DNA of 61,372 nucleotides, filler included. It is 5 parts of 5 records of this genome, joined end to end, with 100 filler letters (N's around TTAATTAATTAA, not from the genome) between each part and the next. Parts side by side here need not be neighbours in the genome. Positions count along the whole stretch, not along the records: positions 9,292 to 27,452 come from DRR378314_1607; 4 more parts are not named here. One strand, 5' to 3'. The translations under genes were made by a program, and so were the position numbers. The number at the start of each line of letters is the position of its first letter. The first letter of the stretch is position 1. Below the pieces are notes generated by a model that searched no databases, was not told the origin of the DNA, and worked only from the letters and a program-made list of their open reading frames with translations. Shown here piece after piece: positions 23,514 through 27,452 of the stretch.

Positions 23514-25178
23514 TCACTCCGTGGCGCCGGCCGCCGACCAGTCCAGGCGGATGTCATAGCCGTCGATACGCTTCTCCGGTTTCAGTGGCGTCACTTCGTC
23601 CGGATTGATGTGCCGGTAGACGTTCTCCGCCGGCTTCAGCGTGGCGTCGCGGCCGTACAGATAGCTCTGCTCTTCGACGATCAGCTTGTAGGCCTTGTTC
23701 AGCGCCAGGGCCCGTTCGCGGCTGGGCGTGATCAGCTCGTAGACGTCGGCGCCGGCCACCTTGTCGCGCTTGAGGCTGCCGTCCTCGTTGAACCAGCGCG
23801 CCTGCATCTCGTCGTTTTCGCGGAACTCATTGCCGCCGCCCACCAGCCGCAGGTACTGGGCGATCTCGCCCTCGTCCTGGTTGATCGCCGGGGCGTCGCG
23901 CATGCCCTTGATGTCGATGTAGCCCCAGCCCTCGGCGCCGGTGACCTTGCGCGGGAAGGCGAAGGTCTGGTCGATGGTGGTGCCCACGGTGGTGTGGCAG
24001 CCCATGCAGAAGCGCTGCTCCTGATTGCTCTGCGGGCGCAGGCTGCCGTCTTCTTTCTCGATGAAGCCCAGCACCATCCAGCCGAAGCCGTTGTCCATGC
24101 CCCGGTCGCCGTGGTCGGTGTAGTAGGGCAGGTTGCCTTCGGCTTTTTCCTGGTGCTCGTTGCCGTACAGGGATTTCAGGTGGGCGCTGTTGTAGAAGCG
24201 GATCTTGTTCATATAGCGCACTTCCTTCATGCGCGGCGGCAGGCCGATGCCGCCGTGCGCGTCCACGCCCACATAGCGGACCGTGTGCAGGAACTCGATA
24301 CCCTGCGGGTAAAGCATGTCACTGACCGGCACGTCGGCGGCGCCGCCCAGGTAGTGGTCCCGCTTCAAGAGGCTGCGGGCGGTGCCGAGGGTGCCGTCGC
24401 CGTCCAGGTCGGCGCATACCGCCTGCTCGTCGATGGGCGGCGTGCTGATGCGGTCGAGCTCCTTGATCGCCATCTCCATCAGCGACAGGTTGGCCAGGTA
24501 GACGTCCCGGGACGCCTGGCCCTCATCGGCGCAGGTGCTGGTGCGGAACGGCTCCGGCAGCCGCACCATGACGTCGTCGGTGCTGCCGTTGGTGGGCCAG
24601 AAGGTGCTCGGCAGCGGCTTGTAGTTGAACGCCACCCAGTGGCTGCCGTCCTTGGCGAAGCCTTGCTCGTCGAACGCCCGGGCGCCCTGCTGCAGGCCTT
24701 CGATGTAGGGCACCGGGCCCTGCCAGTCGCTGTCCTCGGCGAGGGCGGTCATCGCCGGGGTGTAATTGTCCTGGTTGATGTAATCGATGATGGCCTGGTC
24801 GGACATCTTCGCCACCTGCTCGCGGCGGTCCACGAACAGGTTGAGCCAGTGGTTGGTTTCCCCCAGCTCGGAAAAGTCATAAGCGCCCTGCAGATAGCCG
24901 TCCCACATGGTGTTCGGGCGGGCCCGGTCCTCGTAGGTCTGGTGGCAGGTGTAGCAGGGGTTGAAGTCGCCTTCGGTGCGGGTATAGCACTGCGGCGGAA
25001 TCGGTGCTTCCTGGTTATAGATGCTGTCGAGGTCCGGCGGCAGCTGGCGCCGCAGCGCCGTGTTGTCGGCGGCGGCCGGGCCGGATTTGCCCGCGCCGGT
25101 GTCCGCCGGTTGGCTCTCCGCCGGGTCGCAGCCCGCCAGAACCAGTGTGGCAAGCAGCATTGGGATGATCATTTTCAT
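23514..25178 (-). CDS. Uncharacterised lipoprotein with two c-type heme motifs (putative di-heme cytochrome c)
   Basis: Lipobox LAGC; CYTCH and CMGCH; DLDGDG Ca-binding-like loop; 554 aa. Confidence 0.75.
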   Translation of the reverse strand: MKMIIPMLLATLVLAGCDPAESQPADTGAGKSGPAAADNTALRRQLPPDLDSIYNQEAPIPPQCYTRTEGDFNPCYTCHQTYEDRARPNTMWDGYLQGAYDFSELGETNHWLNLFVDRREQVAKMSDQAIIDYINQDNYTPAMTALAEDSDWQGPVPYIEGLQQGARAFDEQGFAKDGSHWVAFNYKPLPSTFWPTNGSTDDVMVRLPEPFRTSTCADEGQASRDVYLANLSLMEMAIKELDRISTPPIDEQAVCADLDGDGTLGTARSLLKRDHYLGGAADVPVSDMLYPQGIEFLHTVRYVGVDAHGGIGLPPRMKEVRYMNKIRFYNSAHLKSLYGNEHQEKAEGNLPYYTDHGDRGMDNGFGWMVLGFIEKEDGSLRPQSNQEQRFCMGCHTTVGTTIDQTFAFPRKVTGAEGWGYIDIKGMRDAPAINQDEGEIAQYLRLVGGGNEFRENDEMQARWFNEDGSLKRDKVAGADVYELITPSRERALALNKAYKLIVEEQSYLYGRDATLKPAENVYRHINPDEVTPLKPEKRIDGYDIRLDWSAAGATE

Positions 25179-25205
25179 GAGCGCGAACCCTGAACATAAA
25201 AACAG

Positions 25206-25236
25206 AAAAAGGGGAGGGCGCTATGCGCTCCTCCCC
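25206..25236 (-). terminator. Intrinsic terminator after phoX
   Basis: Minus strand reads GGGGAGGAGCGC-ATA-GCGCCCTCCCC followed by TTTTT. Confidence 0.6.
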
Positions 25237-25257
25237 GGGTCCGGAAAGCCGGATCAA

Positions 25258-27012
25258 TCAGGCTTTCGGGTCCAGCAGCCACACCATGTTGTTCTCGTGG
25301 TTGCCGGTGTCTTCGCCGATCAGCAGGCGACCGTCGTCCATCACTTCCACGTTGTCCGGGCCGGACAGGCCGTCCACGCTGCAGGTGTTGGCGGCGTCGG
25401 TGGGGTCGTAGGGACCGCCGAGCTCCACCATCTCCAGGCGTGACACGTTGTAGTCCGCTTCCAGGGGCATGCGGAAGGCGCCGCCGCAGCGGGCGTCCTG
25501 GTTGGTCAGCTGGATCGCGCCTTCGCTGTCCAGCATGTTGCCGGCGATGTCGGACATCACCACATAGACGTGCGCCTGTTCACCGTCGCCTTCGACGCTG
25601 GCCTGGGCGCGCTTCTGGTTCACGTTGATGCCTTCCATCTTGTTGAACTCGCCGGTGGCGCCCAGCTTCACCGCCGCCTTGCGCGATTCCAGGAACGCCG
25701 GACGGTCGTCGGCGAACGGGCTGGCGGCGACGCTGCCGCTCTCGTCCAGGTCCTGGTTGAGCTTGGCTTCCGCCCAGTCGTTGATCTGCTGGTCGGAGAT
25801 GTAGCTGTTGGCGCCGTCCACGTAGTCGGCGGTGGTGACGTCGTCGTACTCGTCCACCCAGCTCTCGATGTCCGCGTTGCTGGCGCTGGCCAGTTCCACC
25901 CAGTCGATGTCGAAGCCGGCTTCGGCGGCGTCCATGGGCAGGGTGTCCTGGGTCACCGCGGCGGCGTACAGGGTGCCGCTGCTCAGATCACCGGCGGTGT
26001 CGGCCACGAACTTGAACAGGATCACGCCGCCGCCGTCGTCGCTCATATAGACGGTTTTCTGGTCCGGCATCACCACCGCGTTTTCATGGGAGTAGCGGCC
26101 CAGGGTGAAGTGCTTCACCGGGGTCGGCGTGCCGGTGGGGTCGGTAATCTCGACGATGTAGCCGTAGTCGTAGGGGTTGGGGTAGGTCACCGTGTAATCG
26201 GTGTTGATCTCGCCGGCCAGGTAGTCGGCCAGATCCTGAACGCTGCCCTGGCCGGGTGCGTTCCAGTTCACGGTATTGTCAAAGTACAGCTCTTCGGAGG
26301 TGAGCGGCGTGTTCCACGGGGACACGGTGCCGAAGCAGTTCACCCAGGTGCCCTTCACGGCGGAGAAATCGACCATGGAAGCGTCGTTGTCCTGGACCAC
26401 CCAGCGGCCTTCGTCGGTGCGGATCAGGTGCAGGCGGCTCATGCCGCCGGGACGGTCTTCCCAGTTGGTGAAAAGGTAGCCTTCGTCTTCGCTGACTTCC
26501 ACCCAGCCGTTGAAGTCCGGGTCGTTGGAGACCTTGATCAGGGCGGTGCCGTCCTGCACGGCGATGCCGCCCAGGCCGGGCTGCGGGGCGCCGGCCCAGG
26601 CGTCGCCCTGCTGGCCGAGCACGTTATAGCGGCCGGTGGCCACCCGCATGATCTGCTTTTCTTCGTCGGTTTCCGGTACCGAGACGCCCTCGAACGGCTT
26701 GTTGATGTCGGTGTTTTCGATCAGGCCCACGGTGGCGTGGCGGTAGACGTGCCCTTCGGCGTCGGGCGTCACGTTGGCGTCGGAGGGGTGCTGGATGTTG
26801 GTGAACACTTCGCCGTCCTGTTTCAGGAACAGGCCGGTGGCCTCGGAACCCAGGGGGAGGGTGGCGACGCGGGTCAGGCGTTCCATCTGGATGCCGCCGG
26901 TGTCACCGCCACCGTTATTGCTGTCGCTATCACCGCCGCAGGCGGCCAGGGCGAGCGAGGTGGCGATGGCCAGCGCGCTCAATTTAAAACGGGCGTCGTT
27001 CCGCAGATACAT
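25258..27012 (-). CDS. phoX: PhoX/DUF839-family alkaline phosphatase-like lipoprotein, circularly permuted
   Basis: Lipobox LAAC; NCFGTVSPWNTPLTSEE, GRYSHEN, YMSDD, KMEG, PDN..IGED. The GSEATG..FTNIQHP segment is at the N-terminus. Start trimmed to ATG 27012. Confidence 0.8.
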   Translation of the reverse strand: MYLRNDARFKLSALAIATSLALAACGGDSDSNNGGGDTGGIQMERLTRVATLPLGSEATGLFLKQDGEVFTNIQHPSDANVTPDAEGHVYRHATVGLIENTDINKPFEGVSVPETDEEKQIMRVATGRYNVLGQQGDAWAGAPQPGLGGIAVQDGTALIKVSNDPDFNGWVEVSEDEGYLFTNWEDRPGGMSRLHLIRTDEGRWVVQDNDASMVDFSAVKGTWVNCFGTVSPWNTPLTSEELYFDNTVNWNAPGQGSVQDLADYLAGEINTDYTVTYPNPYDYGYIVEITDPTGTPTPVKHFTLGRYSHENAVVMPDQKTVYMSDDGGGVILFKFVADTAGDLSSGTLYAAAVTQDTLPMDAAEAGFDIDWVELASASNADIESWVDEYDDVTTADYVDGANSYISDQQINDWAEAKLNQDLDESGSVAASPFADDRPAFLESRKAAVKLGATGEFNKMEGINVNQKRAQASVEGDGEQAHVYVVMSDIAGNMLDSEGAIQLTNQDARCGGAFRMPLEADYNVSRLEMVELGGPYDPTDAANTCSVDGLSGPDNVEVMDDGRLLIGEDTGNHENNMVWLLDPKA

Positions 27013-27067
27013 GGGTTTCTCCGTCTTATTCAGAATGGGATTGGGGAGGCGGCCAATCCTGACGGAG

Positions 27068-27111
27068 AAAAATGTCAATTCAGTGTTCGTAAAATGGCGG
27101 CTATGTGAACG
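27068..27111 (-). promoter_or_regulatory. Candidate PhoB (Pho) box array
   Basis: Four heptamers at exact 11-bp period on the minus strand: CGTTCAC-ATAG-CCGCCAT-TTTA-CGAACAC-TGAA-TTGACAT-TTTT. Each is degenerate relative to CTGTCAT. Confidence 0.4.
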
Positions 27112-27137: not shown

Positions 27138-27362
27138 CTATTTCTTGCGGCGGCGGGTGATTACGATCAGAACGATGGTGAGGCCCAGGGCGCCGGCGGG
27201 GAACAGCAGCAGCAGGCGTTCACGGCGTTTGGCCTTCTCCAGCTGGGCGTCGGCTTTCCGGACTTCCGGGTTCACGGCCTGGTCGGCCTGTTCCTGGGCG
27301 ACCACCGGAGTGGCGGCACTCAAACCCAGAGCCAGAATCAGGGAAGCAAGGAAAAGGCGCAT
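27138..27362 (-). CDS. Small exported protein (74 aa) with C-terminal TM anchor and basic tail
   Basis: Signal peptide MRLFLASLILALGLSAATPVVA|Q; C-terminus LLLLFPAGALGLTIVLIVITRRRKK. Confidence 0.6.
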   Translation of the reverse strand: MRLFLASLILALGLSAATPVVAQEQADQAVNPEVRKADAQLEKAKRRERLLLLFPAGALGLTIVLIVITRRRKK

Positions 27363-27388
27363 GCTGAAGGGGCCTTCAGAGCGGATAC

Positions 27389-27417
27389 AAAAAGGGCTCC
27401 CATGGGGAGCCCTTTTC
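27389..27417. terminator. Bidirectional intrinsic terminator downstream of the tRNA
   Basis: AAAAAGGGCTCCC-ATG-GGGAGCCCTTTT. Confidence 0.75.
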
Positions 27418-27422
27418 TGAAT

Positions 27423-27452
27423 TGGTGCCGAGGAGAGGACTTGAACCTCCAC
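27423..27452 (-). tRNA. tRNA 3' portion (T-arm, acceptor strand, CCA), probably tRNA-Leu; truncated by contig end
   Basis: Minus strand reads GTGGAGGTTCAAGTCCTCTCCTCGGCACCA. The anticodon is not in the window; Leu is inferred from the acceptor stem, discriminator A and purA synteny. Confidence 0.8.

What the first reader, a model, noticed from the sequence alone, without database searches (positions are those of the whole stretch)
23514..27012. Permuted non-Tat PhoX paired with a di-heme lipoprotein: candidate phosphate-scavenging and cofactor-assembly system
Seen: two co-oriented lipoprotein genes 79 bp apart. One is PhoX-like with a Sec-type lipoprotein signal and no twin-Arg. The other is 554 aa with CYTCH and CMGCH motifs, three additional Cys besides the lipobox Cys, and a DLDGDG loop. 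Established: canonical PhoX is usually Tat-exported and uses an Fe3+/Ca2+/oxo cofactor. Inference: a Sec-exported PhoX must build its cofactor after export, and the heme partner could oxidise or deliver iron. Alternatively the pair performs redox-coupled chemistry other than simple phosphomonoester hydrolysis. I know of no description of this pairing.
Basis: partly seen in the sequence, partly recalled or inferred. Interest (0 to 1): 0.75.

Follow-up and report, generated by a model that had tools for sequence, protein, structure and literature searches.

The report
Di-heme partner of Sec-exported phosphatases
An uncharacterised two-heme protein almost always sits beside secreted phosphatases that are exported unfolded, which suggests it switches them on after export, much as was proposed for an unrelated heme protein in Flavobacterium.

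Summary
Observation confirmed. Gene 1 is a circularly permuted PhoX lipoprotein without a twin-Arg signal; it keeps nine of the ten active-site residues and has Lys for Arg385. Gene 2 is a di-heme c lipoprotein of the uncharacterised Aq_1262 family (PF27085). Its second heme sits in a P460/c'-beta-like fold, with His at the probable cross-link position and an invariant extra Cys.

The pairing is tight: 70 of 79, 39 of 41 and 67 of 80 heme genes (three samples) lie next to or are fused with a secreted phosphatase. Most misses are contig ends. Permutation is not the cause. Partners are four PhoX lineages without a twin-Arg signal and the unrelated PF04185 family, and 0 of 17 canonical Tat PhoX are partners. 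Pho boxes are enriched upstream (29 of 67 against 14 of 244).

Best reading: a Pho-regulon post-export activator of the phosphatase metal site. The concept is published for a MauG-type partner (Flavobacterium PhoX, Burkholderia BthA), so this is a non-homologous replacement, not a new principle.

Against: 15 Sec-type PhoX-like genes lack an adjacent partner, three Guyparkeria genomes have the heme gene alone, and the Tat contrast rests on two independent events.

The parts
25258..27012 (-). Circularly permuted, Lys-type PhoX-family lipoprotein, 584 aa (E57, E185, C226, E241, E310, D326, K458, E460, D553, D568 = E532, E90, C179, E194, E273, D292, R385, E387, D479, D494 of P. fluorescens PhoX)
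   Evidence: all ten positions invariant in 76 relatives. The E185=E90 match is by motif and position; hhalign was shifted there.
26938..27012 (-). Lipoprotein signal peptide without twin-Arg, lipobox LAAC (Cys25)
   Evidence: read from the sequence; no signal-peptide predictor was available
26707..26883 (-). Permuted segment (about residues 44-102): the C-terminal strands of canonical PhoX, carrying the Glu532 equivalent (E57)
27094..27111 (-). Weak Pho-box-like 11-bp direct repeat, 99 bp upstream of the PhoX start (3 mismatches; not significant alone)
   Evidence: (p 0.10); enrichment is shown only across relatives
25179..25257 (-). 79-bp intergenic gap; no terminator-like site found on the minus strand
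23514..25178 (-). Aq_1262-family (PF27085) di-heme c lipoprotein, 554 aa, lipobox LAGC (Cys17)
24987..24989 (-). Cys64, invariant in 61 of 61; candidate thiolate heme ligand or third heme attachment
   Evidence: role inferred
24942..24956 (-). Heme motif 1, CYTCH (75-79)
   Evidence: 61 of 61
23919..24761 (-). P460/c'-beta-like beta-sheet domain with insertions (residues 140-420)
24393..24410 (-). DLDGDG loop (257-262), probable Ca-binding loop
   Evidence: role inferred
24285..24287 (-). His298 (His in 56, Gln in 5 of 61) at the column of the probable P460 cross-link Lys
   Evidence: weak alignment, and the identity of that Lys is recalled
23994..24008 (-). Heme motif 2, CMGCH (391-395)
   Evidence: 61 of 61

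Best explanation
A two-gene phosphate-starvation module. Gene 1 is a working Fe/Ca PhoX-type phosphatase that crosses the inner membrane unfolded and so must gain its metal site outside the cytoplasm. Gene 2 is its dedicated periplasmic activator. Heme 2 (P460/c'-beta fold, open polar pocket with His298) probably does H2O2- or O2-driven oxidative chemistry, and heme 1 (possibly Cys/His-ligated) stores or relays electrons. The product is most likely the mature ferric oxo site; an oxidative modification of the phosphatase, or reductive release of Fe(II) for loading, are the alternatives within this model (roughly 0.25, 0.15, 0.15). It would do the job proposed for the MauG-like partners of Flavobacterium PhoX and Burkholderia phosA, with an unrelated fold. 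Shown here: linkage, export-signal pattern, conserved ligands, Pho-box enrichment, fold likeness. Inferred: heme binding and ligation, activation, and all chemistry.
For: Linkage: 70 of 79 GTDB loci; 18 of 19 in 41 relatives, the 19th split at contig ends; 39 of 41 in 301 genomes of the order; 7 of 8 in 401 genomes of the phylum; 67 of 80 metagenome loci of the distant subfamily, the other 13 cut by contig ends. Reverse: permuted PhoX has the neighbour in 22 of 23 and 6 of 6 (three of these genomes are shared with the first sample). 0 of 17 canonical PhoX lie within 20 kb of the heme gene although 6 genomes carry both; 18 of 18 unpartnered canonical or short PhoX read have twin-Arg (38). Twin-Arg Lys-type PhoX lack it: 4 of 4 and 11 of 11 (one gene is in both samples). 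On the heme-protein tree five partner classes need only 4 changes, each switch to another phosphatase, including PF04185 neighbours and two fusions. PF04185 also flanks MauG-family dihemes in other genomes (4 of 6 loci examined, plus one PF00149). Pho boxes: 29 of 67 against 14 of 244, specific to period 11, 13 of 20 when the heme gene is first; 19 of 50 in a second set. Precedent: Flavobacterium PhoX lipoprotein is in an operon with a MauG-like gene, both are P-induced, PhoX alone was inactive in P. putida, and its deletion lowered inducible activity (PMC8812569, PMC8115612). A c'-beta protein has peroxidase-like activity (PMC11928373).
Against: Nine Sec-type Lys-class PhoX genes lie in genomes with no detected heme gene (8 in family f60, 1 in G585). 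Six distant Sec-type type II genes have no heme neighbour, five of them in genomes without the gene. Three Guyparkeria genomes have the heme gene but no PF05787 or PF04185 match. The Tat/no-partner pattern reduces to 2 independent contrasts (sign test p 1), and the Sec-type f60 clade is sister to the Tat clade, so the partner may have been lost before Tat was gained. Psip1, also Lys-for-Arg385, is activated in vitro by adding Fe and Ca alone (PMC11098088). Known P460/c'-beta hemes have low potentials (-200 to -430 mV), a poor fit for simple Fe(II) oxidation by ferric heme. The fold match is modest (Z 6.1, Foldseek E 0.018). The Flavobacterium failure could be misfolding, as its authors say. 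The window's own Pho box is weak.
Confidence: 0.55

Rival explanations
1. Protector, not maker: the di-heme protein removes H2O2 or NO near an exposed iron enzyme during P starvation. The phosphatase assembles alone but lasts longer with it.
For: P460/c'-beta proteins bind NO or act as peroxidases (PMC11928373). The heme gene persists alone in Guyparkeria without a Pho box, in L051 two genes from a flavohemoglobin. It is fused twice to a cytochrome d1-type propeller. Psip1 reconstitutes without a partner, and many Sec-type PhoX lack it.
Against: No stress gene recurs in the neighbourhoods; every partner switch goes to another phosphatase, and two fusions are to PF04185; canonical Tat PhoX face the same environment and never carry it (0 of 17).
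Confidence: 0.2
2. Redox subunit: the pair is an enzyme for oxidative P acquisition (phosphite, hypophosphite or phosphonate oxidation), with the hemes taking the electrons.
For: Pho-box enrichment; partners deviate at the active site (Lys for Arg385 in two lineages, Asp for Cys179 in type II; 40-42); two hemes of probably different type.
Against: All nine metal ligands are invariant; Lys for Arg385 occurs in the active phosphatase Psip1 and in unpartnered Tat proteins; the same heme family serves an unrelated phosphatase fold; no phosphonate or phosphite genes recur nearby (one DUF1045 neighbour in L268).
Confidence: 0.12
3. Parallel scavenger: a low-potential surface cytochrome that reduces Fe(III) to free mineral-bound phosphate or iron. 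It is co-regulated with the phosphatase but does not act on it.
For: Low potentials in the fold family; lipoprotein anchor; Pho boxes when the heme gene is first; the unpartnered f60 genomes all carry a Cyc2-like motif (7 of 7 against 0 of 13; 103-106), which suggests iron-rich habitats.
Against: No electron-donor or porin gene is conserved in the loci; it would not explain absence beside Tat PhoX or fusion to PF04185. The f60 point is a single lineage, fits the best model equally, and G585 has neither that motif nor an MtoA-type gene over cut-off.
Confidence: 0.1

Closest known systems
Flavobacterium PhoX-like lipoprotein fjoh_2478 with MauG-like fjoh_2477 (PMC8812569, PMC8115612; passages read)
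   Same: PF05787 lipoprotein in an operon with a c-type heme protein, both induced by P depletion; a cofactor-making role was proposed and not resolved.
   Different: That partner is PF03150 (bCCP/MauG); ours is PF27085 with a P460-like domain and no PF03150 match. Whether the two PhoX proteins belong to one lineage was not tested.
Burkholderia BthA with phosA (PMC6405878; passages and Discussion read)
   Same: Periplasmic di-heme enzyme always next to a putative secreted phosphatase; oxidation of the partner proposed. MauG-family dihemes flank PF04185 genes in genomes examined here, the family that the Aq_1262 domain also neighbours and fuses with.
   Different: MauG fold with His/Tyr heme; induced anaerobically in that paper; partner is not PhoX. 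The genes were not shown to be BthA orthologues.
Canonical PhoX (P. fluorescens, PDB 3zwu/4amf; PF05787)
   Same: Family match over the cut-off; nine of ten active-site residues kept.
   Different: Circularly permuted, Lys for Arg385, lipoprotein signal without twin-Arg, conserved Cys509/Cys544 pair, and a conserved heme partner that canonical genes lack (0 of 17).
Psip1 (PMC11098088; sections 5 and 6 read)
   Same: PhoX-like Fe/Ca propeller with Lys for Arg385; an active phosphatase.
   Different: Psip1 has no conserved-domain hit and lacks the Asp292 equivalent in MED4; ours hits PF05787 and keeps it (D326). The paper's main text does not mention cytochrome, heme or operon. No direct sequence comparison was made.
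Cytochrome P460 / c'-beta superfamily (PF16694; PMC11928373, abstract, passages and section 8 read)
   Same: The five best of 48,161 folds are all of this family (Z 6.1, rmsd 3.8, 135 aligned for 6hiu); CxxCH at the end of the sheet; weak Pfam hits in many homologues (best E 6.8e-6, 26.9 bits against a cut-off of 27).
   Different: 554 aa with large insertions and a second heme; His rather than Lys, Phe, Met, Leu, Val, Ile or Glu at the probable cross-link position; tied to phosphatases rather than nitrogen metabolism.

Membership tests
PhoX (PF05787) | Profile match above the gathering cut-off | tested here: met
   118.9 bits against 24
PhoX (PF05787) | Nine acidic/Cys metal ligands | tested here: met
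   E57, E185, C226, E241, E310, D326, E460, D553, D568 invariant in 76; the ligand list is recalled, the numbering checked on 3zwu
Canonical Tat PhoX | Arg385 | tested here: not met
   Lys458, invariant in 76
Canonical Tat PhoX | Twin-Arg signal and canonical strand order | tested here: not met
   no RR; permuted
PhoX (PF05787) | Fe/Ca-dependent phosphatase activity | not testable with these tools
   needs assay
Psip1 | Sequence kinship to PMM1416; no conserved-domain hit | tested here: inconclusive
   ours hits PF05787 whereas the paper reports no domain for Psip1; no Psip1 sequence was on hand
Aq_1262 (PF27085) | Family assignment | tested here: met
   precomputed on all 120 listed homologues, including a 98% identical one; Atlas score 0.97. 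The local Pfam copy returned no such model, so its text was not seen.
Cytochrome P460 / c'-beta | Beta-sheet fold ending in CxxCH | tested here: inconclusive
   top five VIA rows Z 6.1-4.2, Foldseek prob 0.90 at E 0.018, Pfam 18.9 bits under the cut-off of 27: consistent across methods but each below a firm threshold
Cytochrome P460 | Cross-linking Lys | tested here: not met
   His 56, Gln 5 of 61 at the aligned column; the alignment is weak (9%)
bCCP/MauG (PF03150; BthA, MauG, fjoh_2477) | PF03150 profile | tested here: not met
   no match at E up to 1
bCCP/MauG (PF03150; BthA, MauG, fjoh_2477) | MauG fold | tested here: inconclusive
   not listed in the fold searches, which does not exclude it
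Pho regulon | PhoB box upstream | tested here: inconclusive
   enriched across relatives; the window's own site has 3 mismatches, p 0.10; consensus recalled

The most novel reading that the evidence does not exclude
Aq_1262 proteins are a new class of heme enzyme: a P460-fold heme with a histidine at the cross-link site (possibly a His-porphyrin bond) wired to a cysteine-ligated heme. They act as maturases that build the ferric oxo cofactor, or an unrecognised residue modification, in secreted phosphatases of two unrelated folds. With the MauG-type partners this would show a general, twice-evolved rule that Sec-exported iron phosphatases need a di-heme oxidase, tying ocean organic-P recycling to heme and peroxide supply.
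Probability: 0.22. Interest if true: 0.87.

Novelty: new variant of a known kind. Interest (0 to 1): 0.7.

Why it matters
How a PhoX exported unfolded gets its iron cofactor, and what the MauG-like partners of Flavobacterium PhoX and BthA do, are open questions; a second, unrelated heme fold in the same slot makes them testable in easy marine hosts. Surveys that keep only Tat-type PhoX (as in PMC12594817) leave these phosphatases out, and expressing them without the partner may give false negatives. The predicted heme environments would be new to the P460/c'-beta superfamily.

Tried and rejected
Complex prediction (PhoX 45-581 with heme protein 57-519, alignments not used by the tool): no answer, score 0.00; it says nothing either way.

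Sequence searches of solved structures with the heme protein or its deep profile: no real match. NCBIfam: nothing at cut-off. No MauG-type or other multiheme fold was listed in the fold searches.

Direct PhoX-heme fusion: none seen among the long representatives scanned. The search for longer forms covered only 1804-5000 residues and found none, so 970-1804 residues was not searched that way.

Phage carriage: none in viral contigs.

Strict Pho consensus over the window: 2 matches, fewer than chance, none at the locus (80). No sigma-70 promoter found.

RNA: four metatranscriptome assemblies laid. X2 covers the whole stretch evenly, like DNA. X4, X7 and X8 cover much of the PhoX gene, X4 and X8 parts of the heme gene. 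No listed contig except in X2 bridges the gap, so co-transcription is not shown. Contigs of X4 and X8 both stop at 27022, a weak hint only.

Permutation as the cause of pairing: rejected, since none of the PhoX neighbours in the distant set showed the permuted order. Modification of the Cys179 ligand as the partner's job: unlikely, since type II partners have Asp there. Psip1 identity: not supported. MtoA as an explanation for G585: not found.

Residues found only in partnered Lys-type PhoX (D154, M191, G228, Y264, C509) are confounded with phylogeny and are a lead only.

The scan's earlier notes held nothing. Ten literature searches found no description of the Aq_1262 pairing; subscription papers are mostly not covered, Yong 2014 was not available, and the supplements of PMC8115612 (which residue differs in Flavobacterium PhoX) could not be read.
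Full report
OBSERVATION. The two genes are as described: 25258-27012 (584 aa) and 23514-25178 (554 aa), both on the minus strand, 79 bp apart, with purA converging on them downstream. Near-identical proteins are named as Alcanivorax by their sources. Signal types throughout were read by eye or by regular expression, not by a predictor.

GENE 1. It matches PhoX (PF05787, 118.9 bits). It is circularly permuted: canonical 29-576 aligns to 5-584 and canonical 564-638 to 35-102. With numbering from 3zwu and a recalled list of ten active-site residues, nine metal ligands are present and Arg385 is Lys458; all ten positions are invariant in 76 relatives. Lys at this position occurs in the active phosphatase Psip1 (PMC11098088, section 6), so it does not argue against hydrolysis. 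The two-iron, three-calcium, oxo cofactor of PhoX is recalled from Yong 2014, which was not available.

GENE 2. It belongs to PF27085, named Aq_1262 in the Atlas output; 3137 relatives were found among 7999 candidates scored. In a deep alignment of 61 sequences C64, both CxxCH motifs and a few core residues are invariant, H298 is His in 56 and Gln in 5, and no Met is conserved. The AlphaFold model (pLDDT 84) and a model of residues 140-420 (pLDDT 88) resemble cytochromes P460 and c'-beta. The five best of 48,161 chains are all of that family (Z 6.1, 5.9, 5.7, 5.1, 4.2), Foldseek gives probability 0.90 at E 0.018, and homologues give sub-threshold PF16694 hits. Each score is modest; the agreement between methods is the evidence. 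A weak profile alignment (9%) places H298 on the column where 4 of 9 PF16694 members have Lys; that this is the cross-link Lys is recalled. [quoted passage not shown] Inference: heme 2 is a ligand-binding or peroxidatic heme, and C64 may ligate a heme.

LINKAGE, FORWARD. 42 have a permuted PhoX alongside, 27 an unpermuted distant PhoX class ('type II': Arg kept, Asp for Cys179; 8 members scanned with Pfam, all over the cut-off), and one a PhoX fragment at the contig end: 70 of 79. Of the other nine, three end within 264 bp of the gene, four are Guyparkeria, and two (L058, L094) have a non-Tat PhoX elsewhere in the genome. In 41 relatives, 18 of 19 heme genes adjoin a PhoX-like gene and the 19th is split at contig ends. 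In 301 genomes of the order, 39 of 41 full-length heme genes do (three fragments dropped). In 401 genomes of the phylum, 7 of 8 do. For the distant subfamily, 80 metagenome loci gave 63 PhoX neighbours (60 unpermuted Lys-type, 3 of a further lineage), three PF04185 neighbours (two scanned, one a near-copy) and one PF04185 fusion; the remaining 13 are cut by a contig end. A second PF04185 fusion is P0321. These samples overlap in part and kin are not independent.

LINKAGE, REVERSE. Permuted PhoX has the neighbour in 22 of 23 (order) and 6 of 6 (phylum; three genomes shared). None of 17 canonical PhoX has it within 20 kb, though six genomes carry both systems, and all 18 unpartnered canonical or short PhoX that I read have twin-Arg signals. 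Among unpermuted Lys-type genes in the order sample, 7 Sec-type are partnered and the 4 unpartnered all have twin-Arg. In the phylum sample of 22, 11 have twin-Arg and no partner, one is unresolved, one Sec-type has the heme gene unlinked, and nine Sec-type lie in genomes with no detected heme gene (one read from an uncertain start). Eight of those nine are in one family, f60, whose seven genomes all carry a Cyc2-like motif against 0 of 13 other genomes (motif and its link to iron oxidisers recalled); G585 is unexplained. Type II genes are partnered in 10 of 16; the six lower-scoring ones are Sec-type and alone.

TREES. The Tat Lys-type genes form one clade nested among Sec-type genes, sister to f60. 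There are only two independent Sec/Tat contrasts (p 1), so the export correlation is strong in counts and weak in events (71 chosen rows, quick method). On the heme-protein tree (73 chosen rows) five partner classes need four changes, the minimum: heme lineages keep their partner class, and each switch was to another secreted phosphatase.

REGULATION. Pho-box-like repeats with at most 2 mismatches lie upstream of 29 of 67 pairs against 14 of 244 control genes from the same loci (Fisher p 1.5e-12, overstated by kinship). Other spacings give 6-8 of 67, and 13 of 20 loci with the heme gene first have one. A second set gave 19 of 50 against 7-10 at other spacings; heme genes without a neighbour gave 1 of 8. 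The window's own site is weak.

COMPARISON WITH PRINT. Passages of PMC8812569 and PMC8115612 describe a Flavobacterium PhoX-like lipoprotein in an operon with a MauG-like gene. Both are induced by P depletion, the PhoX was inactive when expressed alone in P. putida, its deletion lowered inducible activity, and the authors proposed a need for a cofactor. PMC6405878 (passages and Discussion) reports BthA always next to a putative phosphatase. In five genomes checked here there were nine PF03150 matches; of six loci examined, four have a PF04185 neighbour, one a PF00149 neighbour and one neither evident; two more look like near-copies and one was not examined. So two unrelated di-heme folds occupy the same slot beside the same phosphatase families. 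Ten searches found no paper on Aq_1262 or on this pairing. I also read passages of PMC12594817, PMC5768637 and PMC13700237, which do not describe it. Supplements of PMC8115612 could not be read and may show which PhoX lineage Flavobacterium has.

MECHANISM. The best-supported reading (0.55) is a post-export activator of the phosphatase. No electron-donor gene is conserved nearby, which favours chemistry driven by H2O2 or O2, as in MauG-type enzymes. The low potentials of the fold family leave reductive Fe(II) delivery open. The partner is not universally required: Psip1 is reconstituted with Fe and Ca alone, 15 Sec-type PhoX-like genes lack it, and three Guyparkeria genomes have it with no PhoX or PF04185 match. 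Rivals are protection from H2O2 or NO (0.2), a redox enzyme for reduced phosphorus (0.12), and parallel Fe(III) reduction (0.1).

VERDICT. Real, conserved, and undescribed for this family in the library searched. It is a new variant of a kind that is known but mechanistically unsolved. Interest 0.7.

Noticed in passing
P0243, P0393, P0265: The Aq_1262 domain is fused to a cytochrome d1-type propeller (PF02239), apparently twice independently, giving a cd1-like architecture. Unexplained by the phosphatase model.
   Followed up: partly
P0283; L257:1-2832, L262:5467-8949, L268:5242-8487, L291:4587-7619: Aq_1262 fused to a TolB-like PD40 propeller, with a third CxxCH in L262, L268 and L291; these three still sit beside a Lys-type PhoX.
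   Followed up: partly
L048, L050, L051, L052 (Guyparkeria): Heme gene with no PhoX or PF04185 match in the three genomes searched and no Pho box; in L051 a flavohemoglobin lies two genes away. Possible repurposing.
   Followed up: partly
L363, L364, L365, L369, L370: MauG-family di-heme genes beside PF04185 or PF00149 phosphatases; in G607 the MauG-type gene also converges on a Tat Lys-type PhoX.
   Followed up: partly
L018, L019, L025-L027, L029, L044: A PhoA alkaline phosphatase family cluster (PF00245, L027 member scanned) occurs in 7 of 79 loci; phytase-like and 5'-nucleotidase genes occur in L240 and L286.
   Followed up: no
L251:567-3839, L265:2505-5858, L278:2512-5817; L060:4494-7730, L062:4305-7571, L348:6345-10202: PhoX fused to a choice-of-anchor I domain, and tandem double-PhoX proteins; L062 has two heme genes close together.
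   Followed up: no
L337-L343 (family f60): Sec-type Lys-class PhoX without the partner in genomes that all carry a Cyc2-like motif; two copies sit in polysaccharide gene clusters.
   Followed up: partly
window 27138-27452: A small membrane-protein ORF lies upstream of the pair, then a tRNA 3'-end-like sequence cut by an assembly gap (read; ARAGORN found no whole tRNA). Genes beyond the gap may come from another contig.
   Followed up: no
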